From Cirrosporium novae-zelandiae (taxonomy: Eukaryota): a stretch of DNA of 64,000 nucleotides. Positions 24,752 through 38,190 of this stretch are shown here, piece by piece. The DNA lies in the NCBI GenBank assembly GCA_026023565.1, contig JAPETS010000036.1, positions 124,001 through 188,000 of the forward strand, given 5' to 3'. The translations under genes and the position numbers were made by a program. Numbering within the stretch: position 1 is the first letter of the stretch; each line of letters begins with the position of its first letter. The notes under the pieces are model-generated. The model had not been told where the DNA came from and did not search any database. It was given only the letters and a program-made list of their open reading frames with translations.

Positions 24752-27700
24752 CTATAGTTGTCGGTAGGGAGTAATGGCTTGGCCGAAAGTCTCCTCAAGA
24801 TCGCATAATATCCTTTTCGCTTTTTCAACCTCGACTAGTTCCTGGCGGTAGTGGATGCTATCTAGATGCCCCCCAAGGTCTGACTCTGTTGCGAAGTAAA
24901 CATGTTCGCTGCCATTGCAGTTCCTCCACAAGCAAAAGAAGGTTGAGGTTCCATGCACTGTTATGGAACGAGAATGGGCGCCGGAGACATGGTTGCTTAA
25001 CATTCCAAATGTTCTGAAATTTTCTACGCAGTCAGACCATCTGCATTGATAAAGTCCTGAAGATTCGGTGTCTTCAGCCACGGATTCATTCGATGATAGA
25101 GTCCGTCCTAGGCCTGGTTTCGCAACAGCAGAGGAATCTGGGGAAGAGGTTCTATTTGGTGATTTGCGGCTTGCCGTATCTGGGATAAACTGAAGCGTTG
25201 TGGAGGATGTTGGGATCGAGCTGCTAGTTGATGGGGTTTTTAGTAGCCGTGCACTGAATTTTTCATCCGATGAAGGTTTGCACAATCTAGGACCCTCAAG
25301 GCCTGGGTTGATTCTGAGTGCTGCTGGGTGTGGATTATACAGTTGTACATCATTTCGTGCATGCGAATAGTCGTTCTTTAACGGATAGATCCTTGTGGGT
25401 TTTGCGATTGGCGTATTTAAAGATTTGAGTTGAAAAGCATTTATTTGGTCTCCACCACTAGCCACCTTCTCAGAGTGATAGGCGCTAGTGTGATGTCGAG
25501 ACGGTGATGGTTCCGGTTCACTATCATATTCCTGCATCGTTTCTTGAGTATCTGACATGTCTTCATCTCTTTGGTGCTTTTTGCTAGCAATCGTAGGGCT
25601 ATTCACTTGAAATAGTCTCATCTGCTCGTCGTGGCTAAAGCTGGTGCTTGAACATAGATGACTGAACAATGCTTTAATGCTGGTAGTATTATCATCCCAG
25701 TTCTCGGGATTTACAGAGCAGGGAAAGATGTCACAAGGACGAAATACTGAGAGAAAATGGCATAGTTCATCATATGACGAATGCCGTGAGTAAGGCAAAG
25801 TCTATGAATGCGTGAGTTATGAGACCAAGAGATTGAGAGAAAGCCTCCTACAATTCTATCTGGTAAAGTAGCTTGTGGGTTTCCTATGCTTTCCTGGGAT
25901 TTTCTCACATGCATTTCAGTCTCTTTCAGTGCTTTTGATAGCAGTATATTGACCAGTTCTTTTGGAGGAACGTCGCCAAAATCGCCAGCCAGCGAAATGT
26001 CAACAAGCAGGGCTTTTGAATCGGAATTTTTAGCTGTTCGAATCATGTCAAATATGGTCTCCTCGACACTATTGTCCATCAACTCCTTGTGTAGTAGGGC
26101 CCTAAGGCTATAGACTGCGGTCTCATCATGCAGTTCAAGTTCGTGGACCTGTCGAAAATCTCCCAAACCACCCCCAGCGCCAACCTCTAGCAATTCTTGA
26201 CCATCTTCCGTCCTCGAGACGACTGGGATAATCCAGACTACATTTTCAATATTTAATTTGCTACAATTGGTGGCCAATTCACAAGTATGAAACCACACAT
26301 CCGGATTAGACGTGAGACATCCTTCTTGCTTGGTGTTACCACACGGATAACCTCCAAGTGCTAGCCCTTCTTTAGTTAATAAATACTTCTCTGATGTCGA
26401 GCCTAGCAAATCGCACAAAGTCTTTTTATAATCGTCCACATGTACCTTTTTCGAATTAGCAACTTCTTATCTAGTTTTTTTTTTTCGTTGTCTAGCACTT
26501 TAATCATGTTTAGATGAGCCAAACCACTTTGTCAAACCAACCACTTTCGCAATTCACATCCAGGAACTCTCAAGCGAAATAAGATGCAGAAAGCTAAAGT
26601 TTCGTTCTACATCACTTGATATTTCACATGTGTGATTCTAAAAATTCTGATTGTAAATTGCAAAAATGATTAGACTAACAAAGTGGTTTGTTTCATTTCA
26701 GCGCAACTAAACAACAAAAGTATGATCGGCGGTTTCACAATACCTTTGAACCGAATGTTGATGATAGAGTGACCCAGACTTTTTCATATCCCAAAGTCCA
26801 AGAATTCATATGAAATACGGTCTTGGCAGGGTATCTCGATATCTTTTGGATGAGTTCACTTAAACCTTCTGCTTTTGTGGGAAATTTCTTGTATATAGAT
26901 CTTTTAGCGACAGCGAAAGCAGTATCGAGATAAACCTTATTAAGCCGTTCATGCTTCATGGCATAGACAAGCAATACCGGATTTCTGCTCAGGGAATTTA
27001 CCCGCCATGGCTTGGCTGGACAGGTATGAGCAGTTATTGAGCCACAGCTGACAATAAATACCTCGTATATCTCCAGTGTAGAGGATTGCTTTGCCATCCC
27101 CCTCGACAAGGAATATAACAGCACCGGGACAATGATTGGCCTGGGAATTCTAAGTTATGACCTTAGGCTCCGAGAGCCAAATAAAAGATACTGACATCAA
27201 ATAACGTCACTCGGAGCTTTTCATGAGGGCTAAGCTCAATCTCCGTGGGAGTTTCTAGCGGAAGAGGCTTCTGGAGAATACCATCAGCCTCGATCTACAC
27301 TCAAGAGACTGGGAGCTCACGAGTAACTTCTTGAGGTGACTATAGTGTTGTTTCCTTGTCTCAAGAATACCACGAGCAAAGTTCATCCGATAGGGAAACT
27401 TTTCCAGACGAAGGAGCAACTTCACATGAATTAGTCAAAGAAGATTTCGGAGACAAGTTGTCACTTGCCTCCCTTGTTGCAGATGAGCAATAGATGAAAG
27501 AGGATTTGAAGGACTCGAGGCCTCGTAGATGATCGGAGTGCACGTGGCTTAGAAAGTAGGCCAGAGGAACAGGACGGGCATGATCTTTCCGAAAAGAATC
27601 AACTGCAAGGGATGTTAGTTTTCGGGGAAGTGGATTAATGTGGCGATGACATGCATACTCCGAATTCGTGGGAATTCTGGAGGGTCAAGTTAGACAATAG

Positions 27701-27758
27701 TTGTGACGAATGGGGTAATCTTCAGCTTGCCAGAAACGAAACCATCAAAAGTGGACAT
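24752..27758 (-). CDS. Artemis/SNM1-like metallo-beta-lactamase/beta-CASP DNA-repair nuclease with C-terminal C2H2-like zinc fingers
   Basis: Spliced: MSTFDGFVS|EFPRIR|IDSFR...FLSHVHSDHLRGL (HxHxDH), D|ANHCPGAVIF, ILYTGDIR, VYLDT, WTLGYEKVW, PYSRHSSYDEL. About 7 introns, two with GC donors. Confidence 0.9.
26514..26696 (-). ncRNA. Candidate structured intronic hairpin (fold-back) within intron 26446-26743
   Basis: 45-nt arms 26514-26558 and 26652-26696 are reverse-complementary: 35 Watson-Crick pairs, plus 7 G-U pairs on the minus strand. Inner arms also pair. Confidence 0.55.
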
Positions 27759-29859
27759 TTTGGCGTCCCAAGAAGGTAAACTAAGTTGGTTGTGGATGCA
27801 TGATTGACACACACGGAAATGATTTCTCGTGTGACTTGAACTATTCTTGGGGGTTGTTGGTGGTGGTTTAGAAACATCAGGTGCCACCAAAGTTAAGCAG
27901 AAGAAGAGAGGTATTGGAGGTGTGAAGCCAAAGCGAGGTCAGGGAATTAGATAACTATTATTATTATTATTATTAAATAGAAAGGGAAGAAGTTGAAGAA
28001 AGGAATGGATGGATGAATGGAAGAAACAGGGTTGTGAGTAGACTAGTCAGCAGAAACATTTATTTCTCTGATGACCTAGGTATTATTGTTTTTTTTGTTT
28101 TTTTTTGTTTTTTTTGTTTTTTCTGTTTTCTTTTGTTTCTCAAAGGTGGATGTTAAGAGGTAGGGACCTAGGTACCTGGGTACCTGGGTACAGACATAGC
28201 CTGTAAAATACAATGATTTGTGGTGTCTGTTGCCCGGTGTGCCCAGACACACCAGACTTTAGGGGATAGTCTCGGGCCTTTAACGGGCGGTGGGTGGTAG
28301 GCGGTTGACCCCAAAAACTTGAGTTGAGTTCAGGAACCAGAGACCTTGGTGGGATAGTTACGATGATGACGGTACTTGGTACCAAAATGCCAGATGGCCA
28401 TGATATAGATATGTACTTCGGTAAATAGATAGTCTTATTAGCTACATAATCATCAGTACATATCAGTATGTCATCTCAGGTCATGAATAGGGCATCCACG
28501 CCTTTTCTCCAAAATACAGGATCCCCAAGGGCCCAACAAACTTGAACCTTTACTTGAATAGGCTCAGTACGCTGGACGTACATTAGAGAAGCAAAGTGGG
28601 AATGAAATTAAATTTTACTGGCACGACTGGACAATTGTTCCAGTCATCCACAGCATTCAGACACACAGTGAGGCGCCAGAGTGCAGTTCCATACAGTCCG
28701 GTCGCTTTTTTAACTATGAGTTGTCTTGCCCACTGCCACCAGCTTTAAATATCTGATGCATTCCTGTTCGTTTTTCTTGCTAATGCCCAATTTCTCTCCA
28801 TATCTATCTCGAACTAAATCAGAAAATACTTCAATTCATCTTTGCTGATTCCCTCACCCTCGGGCGATATTATTATTATTATCATCGTCATCATTGTTGC
28901 CAGTGAACAATTATCATCCATGACCACTTGAGCACGACGACGACGACAACGACAACGACAACGATAACAACATCAACATCAATATCAACAGCAACAGCAA
29001 CAGCAACAGCAACAATAAAGATAGTCTTCACAGAACTATCTCTTTCAGGCACTCCAGGCTATCCCATCGACTATATGTTTAAGTTGATCGGCTAATCGCC
29101 AATCCATAACCTGGACCCTTCATCTCTCATCCTTCCCTCCATCCCTCCCCCCCCTCTCCGAACTTCAACCAACCAGACCAACCAGACCAACCAGAGGGAA
29201 AATTGACTTGACCAACAACAAAAAACTCCGGAGTGTCTTCGGGTCTAAATTAGTAAAAAGGTTTCAAGATTCAAAACAGAGGTACAAAACACAAAAAACG
29301 AAAAACGAAAAACAAAAAAAACAAAAACAAAAAAAAAAACAGTCAAAAATCTCGGGTAATCCGATCTTGTTCCTGAACTAAAACTTTGGGTCATCCTTTT
29401 TCATCCCATCCCGTACCATCTCTTCTTCGGACAAGAAAAATCTTGAGATTTCCTCTGTTGAATCATAGTCGCAGTCACCTGTCCCACCACACACTTGCAC
29501 ACTTGCACACTTGCACACTTTTCCTCCTTCCTTGCCAGTTCTACATCGCTTCCACCATTCACAATCCAAAGGTCCTCCTGACCTGCTCATTCGAAAATAA
29601 AAGATATCCATTTACTCTAACTCGTCCCGTGTCCCCCTGCTTACACCTTCACCATCTTCACTTCACCTCACCACATTTATTTTATCCTCCCCCCCCCCCA
29701 TCTTCCTCCAACCCATAGGATTACTTTTCCTGGATAACAATTACTTTGGAATTATATACCAGAACAATTTCTTTGTTGCTCCAAGCGAATTTCCCCGTCA
29801 AGGGAACCTCAATTTCCGAGACGAATCAAAACATCGACTACGGTTCGCTTCCGCCCGCC

Positions 29860-32098: not shown

Positions 32099-33301
32099 TC
32101 ACACCCCCACACCCCTACCAGCCGTATTCCTGTCCACAATCCTCCTCGCAAACTCCCCAAAGCTAACCCCCCCCTCCTCGACCTCGACCTCCAAATTCGG
32201 CTGCGTAAAAACCACCAACGTATTCCTCGCGATCCCCTCCCCTTCCTCTCCATCAGCTCCACGCACGAAATGCGGTACCGCCTTGAACCTCCCCTTCGTC
32301 ATAGATTCTAGCGCCTCGCCTGTTTGAAATGCGAGACAGTCTTTTGGGATGTCTATTTTTGTGATGGAGCCGGAGCGGGAGCGGATGTAGAGGCCTGCGT
32401 TCGGTGAGGGGTTGGTATTGAGCTCCGGGAGAGGGGTTAAGGGTTGGTTTGGTTCGAGGGCTGGGATTAGGGTGGTGGATTCGTCGATGAGCATGGCGCT
32501 TGTGAGGGCGGTTAGGCAGCCGTGGTCGACATGGGTGGCGCACCAGCCGTCCTGAGATTTCTGGATGGAGGTTTGCGCGGGTGTTGGGGAGTTGGATTTC
32601 ACGTGCGCTGGGGGGAAATAGTGGAGTAAGCGGGCTTTGGTGGTTGTGCTGGTGCGGACGACGTTTTCAAGGAGATTTTTGGGGGTGTAGGAGGGGATTT
32701 TTTGGGTGGCGTATTGATCGCATGCGCGTGCGACTAGGGCGGCCGTGGAGATCATTAGGTTGCAGAGTTCCGTGGTTGCGGTTTGGAAGTCTCGGAGTGG
32801 GGGCCAGATGTTTGGCGTGGTGTATTCGACGAAGGGGGGTGGGGCGCATTGGAGGGTCGGGTCTGTGTGGAAGGCGCAGTTGATGTAGTAGGAGCCCTTG
32901 AGGATGTCGACTACGCCTGGCCGAAGGGTCTCGACGCCGTGGGACCAGCCCACCAGGTATTTGGCGTCGGGACGGGTGAGGGCGTCGAGTTTGGATTGAG
33001 GGAGGTGCGCTAGATATGAGGCCGAGGAGAGGACGCGGGAGCGGAGGGAAGGGAAGCTCGAGGGGAGGGACCGCACGACGAGGATGCCCAGCGAGGAGGG
33101 GCCGAAGGCTTCTTCGAGAGTGGAGAATGGCACCGTGCCTATTTTGCAAAGTTGAGAAGGAATGTCCTTTTTTGAAAAATTTGTTTTGTTTTGTTTTTTT
33201 TTGTTAGGGATGTTTTGTGTGGTGGTGGTTAGTTATGTACCGTTTTGTAAATCTTTAAGACTGACTGTGACGGCCTGAGCTTTCTTTGGGAGTGGAGACA
33301 T
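32099..33301 (-). CDS. 2-oxoglutarate/Fe(II) oxygenase, isopenicillin N synthase/clavaminate synthase-like superfamily
   Basis: VTVSLKDLQN|G..FSTLEEAFGPSSLGILVV, KARLLHYFP, HxD motif (WCATHVDHGCLT), FQTGEAL, distal His in AVPHFV. Intron ~33140-33240. Confidence 0.88.
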
Positions 33302-36464: not shown

Positions 36465-37104
36465 CTTTACGAGACTTCATGTTCGATCGATGTCACTGAT
36501 TTAAGCGGGGTGGAGTAGAAACATTGCTATGGCGTTTTGGACGTTGATATATCCTCTTGATGTGCGTTTATATTCTGGCTACATGGGTCGATGTTGATGT
36601 ATATGAATGAATGATGTGCTCCTGTAGGTGTTTAATGTCGTTGGCAACTGGATTTGACGGTAGGGATTCCTGGCGTTCTCTATTCAATGGCATGTATGAC
36701 CTACGTGGAGCCAATAAATATTTCTCTATAATGAAAATATACCTCATATCTTAAGATCATATCTAGAATCGTCAATTCCCGTGGGATAGCTTATATATCC
36801 GAATAGAAACTTTCTTTTTTCGCTCCCTCACAATACGTAACTAGATACAGATAAGTGATGTGGTCTGGATGGATTGAAATCAGTTGCGGCGTTCAACGGT
36901 TACAATTATAGGATAGATATAAATTATAATGATTGCAACCTCACGCCCTAGCTGTCAATCGAGTGAGTCATTTTATCATGACATTACAATATAACTAGAA
37001 CCACTCCGACAAGATTCTCTCCCCATTATTTTATACCCCAGCACGCCTAAGGCCTCAACCCCGCTCCCCCGCCACCACTTACCCAGCCAGCTAGCAAGCC
37101 CAAA

Positions 37105-38190
37105 ATGCCTCCCCAACCCCTCATCCTCCCCTCCACAACCACTGACGTCTTCACCCAAACCCGGTACAGAAGGTAACCCCCTAGCCATTATTTTCAAAAT
37201 CCCCCGAGGAGCCACCCTCCCTCACCCAAACTCAAAAATAAACCATCGCTTGCGAGTTCAATTTCTCCGAAATGGTATTCCTGCACGCGCCTAGCAGCAG
37301 CACCACCAAGTGACAACGACAACGACCATGATGATAAGGATAATGAAAATGATAATGAAAATGAACGCCGCCTCGACATCTTCACCACCTCCCACGAACT
37401 CCCCTTCACAGGCCACCCCACAATCGGCACTGCCATCTACGTCCTAAAGAACGAAGAAGAACCCTTCCTCTTCCTCCTCCTCCTCCTCCTCCTCCCCCAC
37501 AAAACCAAAACCACATTCAGAAATAAAAGCCAGCCTCCCCTTCCCGTATATCCTACGATTCAAAAAAAACCCGATCTCGCATCCATTAGCAGAAACTCCA
37601 CACGGTTTTCCACGAACACACACTCTCTAACCGGGGTTTTCTGGAAACGAGATTTTGAGATTGGTAGCTGAAATGAGGGCGTAGTAGGAGTAGGAGTGGT
37701 ACCATCTAGCGCACGCAACAATAAGAGGAACTCATTCCCTCTGGTTAATATCGTCAAGGGGCATATCATTCGTACTCGTAGACCCTTCAAGACACACCGC
37801 AGCGCTAGCTAGCTAAGCGCCATGAATCTCTAGATGCGGGGTACCCTTTCATCATGCGGCTCTAGAGATCCAGCATGAGCGCCCTTTGTTTTGTGGGGGG
37901 ACCGTATTTTTTATTGCCACTCTCTCACTCCTACCACCCCCAATAACAACAATGAAAACAAAATCAAAAGTCCGAATCCGATTTATTGAGGGGATGCTAG
38001 AGGGGATCCAGCTAGCTATGGGAAGTTGCGGCCGGCTGGCGCGTTGAGTGTGTTGTGTTTTTTGGCACTTTGGAGGGGGTGTGAGGAGAGGGAAGAGGGG
38101 GAAGTGGGGGAAGTGGGTGGTGGAGATTGTGCGGGGAGCGGAAATGGGGAGGGAGAGGGAGAGGGAGGGAAGGGGGAGATTTTTGTGTAA
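37105..38190 (+). pseudogene. PhzF / diaminopimelate-epimerase-like pseudogene
   Basis: DVFTQTRY (frameshift) EGNPLAI, LTQTQK*TIACEFNFSEMVFLH, RLDIFTTSHELPFTGHPTIGTA and late EIVRGAEMGR. These PhzF signature motifs are broken by a stop, frameshifts and repeat expansions. Confidence 0.85.

What the first reader, a model, noticed from the sequence alone, without database searches (positions are those of the whole stretch)
26446..26743. Intron of the Artemis-like gene folds into a long hairpin that is near-perfect only on the transcribed strand
Seen: this 298-nt intron is several times longer than the gene's other introns. Arms 26514-26558 and 26652-26696 (45 nt) give 35 Watson-Crick pairs. Seven of the 10 mismatches become G-U wobbles on the minus (pre-mRNA) strand, giving 42/45 paired, whereas only one is a wobble on the plus strand. 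Two inner stems (26574-81 with 26620-27; 26583-91 with 26605-13) each have a single mismatch, again G-U on the transcript. Inference: this bias is what selection on RNA structure leaves; symmetric decay of a DNA inverted repeat should not favour one strand. Candidates are an intron-encoded milRNA/siRNA precursor, a stem that brings the donor and branch point together (effective intron ~115 nt) to control splicing of a DNA-repair nuclease, or a domesticated MITE.
Basis: partly seen in the sequence, partly recalled or inferred. Interest (0 to 1): 0.72.

Follow-up and report, generated by a model that had tools for sequence, protein, structure and literature searches.

The report
Hairpin insert in fungal repair-gene intron
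A 298-base intron in a fungal DNA-repair nuclease gene looks like an ordinary short intron that took up a 237-base inverted repeat, which in the RNA should fold away as a long hairpin; the hint that this fold is kept by selection is real but statistically modest.

Summary
The intron (26446-26743, minus strand) carries the longest inverted repeat in the window. The sense RNA folds at -93.6 kcal/mol (z -7.0, 0 of 200 shuffles). The antisense folds at -59.8 (z -1.9).

The host is an SNM1/Artemis-type gene of Cirrosporium novae-zelandiae. Its seven other introns are 46-66 nt. Ten of 75 orthologous metagenome loci have a phase-0 intron at the same codon boundary, always 49-60 nt. The hairpin spans 237 nt and leaves 24 + 37 = 61 nt unpaired. 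So this is best read as a normal intron with a foldback insertion.

A strand-neutral arm alignment gives 14 sense against 4 antisense wobbles (p = 0.03, post hoc). No RIP-like context was found, and the other introns show no sense-strand C depletion. Most wobbles share one orientation, which selection alone does not predict.

The geometry meets the yeast "zipper stem" criteria. Copy number, small RNAs, splicing and close relatives could not be tested. Known kind, modest interest.

The parts
24752..27758 (-). Host gene: SNM1/Artemis-type beta-CASP metallo-beta-lactamase nuclease. My model has 9 exons and 778 aa.
   Evidence: Exon 25852-26445 is 100% identical to an NCBI protein of Cirrosporium novae-zelandiae. 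Pfam DRMBL hits at E 3.1e-06. The model is open and aligns from residue 1 to homologues P0002-P0006.
26446..26743 (-). The 298-nt phase-0 intron between ...GSK and VHVD.... Donor is GTATTG and acceptor is AAG.
   Evidence: The deposited protein and 5 homologues are contiguous across it. The other 7 introns are 46-66 nt. If the intron is retained, the frame hits TGA at its third codon (read).
26483..26719 (-). Inverted-repeat insert that forms the long sense-strand hairpin (sense positions 25-261, 90 pairs).
   Evidence: The hairpin alone folds at -90.9 kcal/mol on the sense strand and -54.5 on the antisense.
26638..26719 (-). The transcript's 5' arm (right arm on the plus strand). It is the AT-richer arm and holds the U of 14 of the 17 wobble pairs.
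   Evidence: GC is 0.28 here against 0.39 for the other arm.
26483..26573 (-). The transcript's 3' arm (left arm on the plus strand). It is G+U-rich on the sense strand and contains an internal 14-nt direct repeat (26522-26535 / 26539-26552).
26574..26637 (-). Apex of the hairpin, with two short inner stems and loops.
26720..26743 (-). 24-nt 5' linker including the donor GTATTG. It is unpaired in the centroid structure.
26446..26482 (-). 37-nt 3' linker. It holds the rest of an 11-A run, the branch-point motif CTAAT (26455-26459, branch A at 26456, 10 nt from the intron's 3' end) and the acceptor AAG.

Best explanation
An old, normally 50-60-nt phase-0 intron of an SNM1/Artemis-type nuclease gene has taken up an inverted-repeat (foldback) insertion of about 237 nt.

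In the pre-mRNA the insert pairs with itself into a hairpin of about 90 bp. That leaves 24 nt after the donor and 37 nt before the acceptor single-stranded. Donor and branch point are therefore held about as far apart as in a normal intron of this gene, and two donor-like sites inside the insert are buried in the stem. This is how a yeast 'zipper stem' works.

Since insertion the two arms have diverged by about a quarter of their aligned positions. Changes that leave a G-U pair in the transcript have accumulated. Changes that would give an A-C mismatch in the transcript are rare. I read this as purifying selection for the RNA fold, because failure to splice puts a stop codon three codons into the intron.

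Shown: the repeat, the fold energies, the intron status, the intron lengths here and in orthologues, the geometry and the wobble counts. Inferred: that the extra sequence is an insertion, that the hairpin forms in vivo, that it helps splicing, and that selection caused the bias.
For: The repeat and its strand-specific stability are real. Sense z is -7.04 (0 of 200 shuffles) and antisense z is -1.91.

The intron is real and 4.5-6.5 times the length of the other seven introns, which are 46-66 nt.

The same codon boundary carries a GT..AG intron in 10 of 75 orthologous metagenome loci (7 distinct sequences), always 49-60 nt. This includes L066, the locus placed nearest to this gene, though with weak support of 89/56.

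The hairpin occupies sense positions 25-261, so 61 nt remain unpaired.

The geometry meets the positional criteria published for yeast zipper stems. [quoted passage not shown] Here the values are 24 nt, 23-26 nt and 47-50 nt.

Donor, branch motif and acceptor are unpaired in the centroid structure. Two donor-like hexamers inside the insert have 5 of 6 bases paired.

Wobbles are 14 sense against 4 antisense, p = 0.031 two-sided.

The supposed C-to-T sites show no CpA preference. The other introns show no sense-strand C depletion. The repeat's dinucleotide indices differ little from the window's.
Against: The bias rests on 18 sites, and the finding was picked because it looked biased.

Fourteen of 17 wobbles share one orientation. 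Putative C-to-T hits 14 of 25 C in one arm against 3 of 16 in the other (Fisher p = 0.025). Selection on pairing does not predict this. It points to some arm- or strand-specific mutational history, although p is 0.055 once the arms' C content is allowed for.

Raw strand differences in MFE of this size are common in the window.

There are no RNA data, no close relative and no genome-wide copy count, and no target-site duplication could be recognised.

Published cases caution against assuming benefit. In Hypoxylon the terminal inverted repeats of symmetrical introns appear unnecessary for excision (section 3.5 read). [quoted passage not shown]
Confidence: 0.45

Rival explanations
1. A neutral passenger. 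A foldback or MITE-like insertion sits in an intron and is simply decaying. The excess of sense-strand wobbles is chance or a local, arm-specific C-to-T history such as a one-off deamination or RIP-like event on one strand of one arm. The hairpin may form, but nothing selects for it.
For: The finding was selected post hoc. The wobble orientation is skewed, 14 U-G against 3 G-U. The hit rate differs between arms (Fisher p = 0.025). The right arm has GC 0.28 against 0.39. A one-strand event would fall on the sense strand half the time. Strand MFE differences of this size are common in the window.
Against: There is no CpA preference, 5 of 14 against 6 of 11. The hairpin's TpA/ApT of 0.72 and (CpA+TpG)/(ApC+GpT) of 1.34 are close to the window's 0.74 and 1.26. 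Five other introns of the gene are C-rich on the sense strand, so a general transcription-linked C-to-T pressure is not visible. After about 25% divergence between the arms the sense fold is still the most stable 300-nt fold in 64 kb.
Confidence: 0.33
2. The whole intron is, or descends from, a mobile structured intron. It would be an introner-like element or a 'symmetrical sister intron' whose RNA fold is selected at the level of the element family, and it happens to lie at a site where other fungi also have an intron.
For: Fungal introner-like elements are described as longer than regular introns, with stable predicted structures and compensatory changes (abstract and passages). Hypoxylaceae sister (stw)introns of about 207 nt carry 45-55-nt inverted repeats about 73% identical (abstract and section 3.5). 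That architecture is close to this one. The two exon-intron junctions share AAAG|GTA (read).
Against: The intron position is shared with 10 of 75 orthologous loci, including the nearest one. The repeat is internal, 24 nt and 37 nt from the intron ends, not terminal. No second copy lies in the 64-kb window or in 432,508 bases of related loci. Most of the shared junction motif is forced by splice signals and a conserved valine codon.
Confidence: 0.1
3. The hairpin is an intron-hosted precursor of small RNAs (milRNA or siRNA) cut by a Dicer-type enzyme.
For: It is a long, imperfect, G-U-containing hairpin on the transcribed strand. The best Rfam matches are long-hairpin plant miRNA families.
Against: Those matches are far below threshold: 30.1 bits against a gathering score of 195, and 25.2 against 71. 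No small-RNA or RNA data exist to lay on it. Nothing points to a target.
Confidence: 0.07

Closest known systems
Zipper stems of Saccharomyces cerevisiae introns (RPS17B and others; Rangan et al. 2025, PMC12350175; passages read)
   Same: An intronic stem lies between donor and branch point and shortens their effective distance. The published positional criteria are met here (24 nt, 23-26 nt, 47-50 nt in total).
   Different: This is a filamentous ascomycete with about 50-nt introns, not a yeast with 400-500-nt ribosomal-protein introns. The stem is about 90 bp and made of one inverted repeat, not a short stem. No probing or splicing data exist.
Internally symmetrical sister (stw)introns of Hypoxylaceae (Fekete et al. 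2021, PMC8469720; abstract, section 3.5 and passages read)
   Same: These are fungal spliceosomal introns of about 200 nt with 45-55-nt imperfect inverted repeats (about 73% identity) that predict a hairpin, and only the coding strand is a genuine intron.
   Different: There the repeats are terminal, the introns are multi-copy and sit at new positions, and many are twin introns. Here the repeat is internal, the position is shared with orthologues, and the copy number is unknown.
Introner-like elements of Dothideomycetes (Collemare et al. 2013, PMC3609843; abstract and passages read)
   Same: They are longer than regular introns, have a stable predicted secondary structure, and their structure is reported to be conserved by compensatory changes.
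   Different: They are defined by hundreds of near-identical copies and by creating new intron positions. Neither is shown here, and the second was tested and not met.
MITE or foldback transposon insertions, and MITE-derived hairpin RNA genes
   Same: A short non-coding element that is an inverted repeat over nearly its whole length and lies in a genic region.
   Different: No target-site duplication was recognised, no second copy lies in 64 kb, and the family is unknown. This comparison rests partly on general knowledge, not on a call.

Membership tests
Zipper stem (criteria of Rangan et al. 2025) | [quoted passage not shown] | tested here: met
   90 predicted pairs at sense positions 25-261. 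Donor is at 1-6 and CTAAT at 285-289.
Zipper stem (criteria of Rangan et al. 2025) | [quoted passage not shown] | tested here: met
   24 nt; 23 nt to the motif or 26 nt to the branch A; 47-50 nt in total. The criteria come from passages and were derived for the yeast spliceosome.
Zipper stem (criteria of Rangan et al. 2025) | Forms in vivo and affects splicing | not testable with these tools
   No RNA run holds the locus.
MITE | Many dispersed copies in the genome | not testable with these tools
   No genome is held. No second copy lies in the 64-kb window.
MITE | Terminal inverted repeats flanked by a target-site duplication | tested here: inconclusive
   The inverted repeat reaches the ends of the insert. 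Reading the flanks showed no clear duplication.
Introner-like element | Longer than regular introns, with a stable predicted fold | tested here: met
   298 nt against 46-66 nt; z -7.04.
Introner-like element | Occupies a newly gained intron position | tested here: not met
   10 of 75 orthologous loci have an intron at the same phase-0 site.
Introner-like element | Hundreds of near-identical copies | not testable with these tools
   No genome is held.
Hypoxylaceae symmetrical sister (stw)introns | Inverted repeats at the very ends of the intron | tested here: not met
   The repeat starts 24 nt inside the intron and ends 37 nt before its end.
miRNA-like RNA precursor | Match to a curated hairpin RNA family | tested here: not met
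   The best match is MIR8007 at 30.1 bits against a gathering score of 195.
miRNA-like RNA precursor | Discrete 19-25-nt RNAs from one arm | not testable with these tools
   No RNA holder is listed.
RIP-mutated repeat | C-to-T changes preferring CpA, and raised RIP indices | tested here: not met
   CpA context is 5 of 14 mutated against 6 of 11 unmutated. The hairpin's indices, 0.72 and 1.34, are close to the window's 0.74 and 1.26. That RIP prefers CpA is recalled, not from a call.
SNM1/Artemis beta-CASP nucleases (host gene) | HxHxDH metallo-beta-lactamase motif and DRMBL domain | tested here: met
   HVHSDH is encoded in ORF 27361-27684. DRMBL hits at E 3.1e-06, 27.8 bits against a cut-off of 22. 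Lactamase_B_2 is below its cut-off on the single exon tested (17.8 against 27).

The most novel reading that the evidence does not exclude
The hairpin is a selected cis-element rather than a tolerated passenger. It would act as a structural gate that sets how much of a DNA-crosslink-repair nuclease message is productively spliced. Loss of the fold would give immediate termination and decay. It might double as a source of small RNAs. If so, a foldback insertion has been domesticated inside an intron in an isolated fungal lineage.
Probability: 0.12. Interest if true: 0.6.

Novelty: new member of a known kind. Interest (0 to 1): 0.3.

Why it matters
If the sense-strand bias reflects selection, this is a clean natural example outside budding yeast of an intron tolerating, or using, a large insertion by folding it out of the way. 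It would also show how inverted-repeat elements can sit in the very short, length-constrained introns of filamentous fungi without breaking the host gene. It suggests a simple genome-wide test: do intronic foldbacks carry more sense-strand than antisense-strand wobbles? As a single case with p of about 0.03 it is suggestive, not a discovery.

Tried and rejected
Whole genome: none is held for this window, so copy number and target-site duplications could not be examined.

Sequencing runs: 3 were listed and 1 holds the stretch. That one may be the source of the DNA. No RNA holder is listed. Laying the three runs gave 3 contigs from X1 with no differences. X2 and X3 gave nothing at 80% likeness. 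This yields no information on expression, small RNAs, variants or relatives.

Rfam: 6 matches at E up to 10, none near a gathering score. The weak snoRNA-like match (21 bits against 45) and my reading for C/D boxes gave nothing.

BLAST of the intron: only itself, its own arms and chance words of 15 nt or less in the window. Nothing in the 80 related loci.

Earlier findings of this scan: nothing for this place or sequence. The word search returned only unrelated prokaryotic and phage cases.

Close relatives: the best non-self protein match to the 198-aa exon is 40% identical, so covariation in orthologous introns cannot be tested with sequences I could reach.

RIP literature search: the listing gave nothing on minimal repeat length or strandedness that I used.

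Raw strand difference in MFE as evidence: rejected, because differences above 45 kcal/mol are common in the window.

Similarity between this intron's linkers and the L066 intron: noticed by eye but not pursued, as it is mostly splice-signal consensus.

Full report
**What is there**

The stretch 26446-26743 lies on the minus strand between two exons of a gene. One 198-aa exon (25852-26445) is 100% identical to an NCBI protein named as a hypothetical protein of Cirrosporium novae-zelandiae. The next best match is 40% identical. The taxonomy places this fungus in the small class Xylobotryomycetes.

Pfam finds the DNA-repair metallo-beta-lactamase domain (DRMBL, E 3.1e-06). The HVHSDH motif is encoded upstream. 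One homologue is named Artemis by a source. So "Artemis-like" is fair.

My model has 9 exons and 778 aa, is open, and aligns from residue 1 with five homologues. Its introns are 66, 56, 49, 50, 55, 46, 298 and 50 nt. The deposited protein and the homologues run straight from ...GSK to VHVD..., with no residues corresponding to the 298 nt. It is therefore an intron, 4.5-6.5 times as long as the others. If retained, the reading frame meets TGA at its third codon (read).

**Check of the observation**

Of 45 positions, 35 are Watson-Crick, 7 are G-U on the sense strand, 1 is G-U on the plus strand, and 2 are other mismatches. Both inner stems hold one sense G-U each.

The repeat is larger than described. 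It has 65-nt arms at 71% complementarity. In the sense fold it forms one hairpin from sense position 25 to 261 (window 26483-26719). That hairpin has 90 pairs, of which 73 are Watson-Crick and 17 are G-U.

- Sense RNA of the intron: -93.6 kcal/mol; shuffles -59.2 +/- 4.9; z -7.04; 0 of 200 as good.
- Plus strand: -59.8 kcal/mol; z -1.91; 6 of 200.
- Hairpin alone: -90.9 against -54.5 kcal/mol.

It is the longest of 5 inverted repeats found in the 64 kb. It is also the lowest GC-corrected fold energy among 638 windows on both strands.

One caution applies. A raw strand difference of about 33 kcal/mol is not unusual here (sd 20.5, many windows above 45). Strands rich in G and U always fold better. 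The asymmetry therefore has to be judged from shuffle-corrected scores and from the wobble counts.

**Where the extra length comes from**

A profile of six homologues pulled 80 fungal loci out of public metagenomes. Seventy-five of them hold both flanking exons.

- Ten of the 75 (7 distinct sequences) have a GT..AG phase-0 intron at exactly this codon boundary, 49-60 nt long.
- The other 65 have none at this boundary. Three of these have an intron about 14 codons upstream.

I built a tree of 51 rows. Exact duplicates and loci with fewer than 100 aligned residues of the downstream exon were left out. It places this gene next to L066, which has a 53-nt intron there. Support is weak (89/56) and this gene's branch is long. 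The intron-bearing rows need at least 4 changes on the tree.

In the intron studied here, the parts outside the hairpin are 24 nt and 37 nt, 61 nt in all. That is the size of a normal intron in this gene and in the orthologues. The simplest reading is an old short intron that took up a foldback insertion of about 237 nt. This is an inference; no empty site in a close relative could be examined.

**The strand bias**

The folding program itself favours G-U pairs on the strand it folds. I therefore aligned the two arms as DNA with a strand-neutral score. This gave 79 matches, 14 transitions that are wobbles in the sense RNA, 4 that would be wobbles only in the antisense, 9 transversions and 26 gap columns.

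- 14 against 4: p = 0.031 two-sided.

I tested two mutational causes.

- A RIP-like process should prefer CpA (this preference is recalled, not from a call). The base after the supposed C-to-T sites in the main arm is A in 5 of 14 cases, against 6 of 11 for unchanged C. The repeat's dinucleotide indices are close to the window's. No AT-rich block lies in the window.
- A general transcription-linked C-to-T pressure should leave other introns C-poor on the sense strand. In the five I counted of the other seven (267 nt; one with coordinates a base short), C is 73 and G is 50.

Both results favour selection.

Against selection, 14 of the 17 wobbles in the fold have U in the transcript's 5' arm and G in the 3' arm. 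If the wobbles arose by C-to-T, 14 of 25 C were hit in one arm and 3 of 16 in the other (Fisher p = 0.025). Allowing for the arms' different C content the skew is p = 0.055. An internal direct repeat in the other arm weakly suggests that C was the ancestral state. Selection on pairing does not predict an arm preference, so part of the pattern may be mutational history. With 18 sites and a post hoc choice, the case for selection is suggestive only.

**How it would work**

The donor (GTATTG), the branch motif (CTAAT, branch A 10 nt from the intron's 3' end) and the acceptor (AAG) are unpaired in the centroid structure. The stem starts 24 nt after the donor. It ends 23 nt before the branch motif and 26 nt before the branch A, giving 47-50 nt of linker.

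These values meet the positional criteria for yeast zipper stems. Those are at least 10 nt, at least 20 nt and 42-85 nt in total, set by modelling in the A-complex spliceosome (passages read). Applying them to this fungus is an extrapolation. Two donor-like hexamers inside the insert have 5 of 6 bases paired.

So, if the hairpin forms, the spliceosome sees something like a 61-nt intron. That fungi recognise introns across the intron is stated in a survey of which I saw only the search listing and abstract (PMC2397502).

Whether the fold is needed is open. In Hypoxylon the inverted repeats of symmetrical introns appear unnecessary for excision (section 3.5). Some yeast zipper-stem variants even lowered intron retention.

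**Comparison with what is known**

Three described kinds are close.

- Yeast zipper stems. The positional criteria are met; function is untested.
- Symmetrical sister (stw)introns of Hypoxylaceae. These are about 207 nt with 45-55-nt repeats about 73% identical. Their repeats are terminal and their positions new, so two features are not met here.
- Introner-like elements. These are long and stably folded with compensatory changes. They are defined by many copies and new positions. The first cannot be tested here and the second is not met.

A MITE remains possible but untested. There is no second copy in 64 kb or in 432,508 bases of related loci, no clear target-site duplication, and no genome. 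A small-RNA precursor cannot be tested, and Rfam gives only sub-threshold matches to long-hairpin plant families.

**Verdict**

The best reading is a foldback insertion in an old short intron, looped out as a zipper-like hairpin in the pre-mRNA, with a modest signal of selection for the RNA fold (confidence 0.45). The main rival is a neutral passenger with chance or arm-specific mutation (0.33). It is a new member of a known kind and of modest interest, unless genome-wide copies or RNA data show the bias to be general.

Noticed in passing
window 27419-27758 (minus strand): The deposited protein model (P0001, 743 aa) lacks the HVHSDH metal-binding motif that the DNA encodes. A model with a 16-nt first exon, an 18-nt micro-exon (27659-27676) and a GC-AG intron (27420-27468, GCAAGT...AAG, 49 nt) restores it. 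That model aligns from residue 1 with five homologues.
   Followed up: yes
window about 24983-25048 and the C-terminal tail 24752-25400 (minus strand): The C-terminal tail of this nuclease has cysteine/histidine patterns. It gives a sub-threshold hit to a C2H2 zinc-finger model (Zap1_zf1, 23 bits against a cut-off of 27.2). It does not align with the tails of the five homologues.
   Followed up: no
loci L001-L080 (metagenome orthologues): The intron at the GSK|VHVD boundary is present in 10 and absent in 65 of 75 loci, scattered over at least 4 places of the tree. L057, L060 and L061 instead have an intron about 14 codons upstream. This is a patchy intron presence pattern of the kind expected from repeated loss, or possibly parallel gain.
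   Followed up: partly
whole window, 300-nt windows: The two strands differ in RNA fold energy by more than 45 kcal/mol at several places, for example 37001-37600 and 32301-32900 (sd of the difference 20.5). Raw strand differences in MFE are therefore not evidence of strand-specific structure in this genome.
   Followed up: partly
window 27950-27975 and 28085-28135: An (ATT)n microsatellite and a run of T-rich (G/T) repeats lie just upstream of the gene's start, in the presumed promoter region (read).
   Followed up: no
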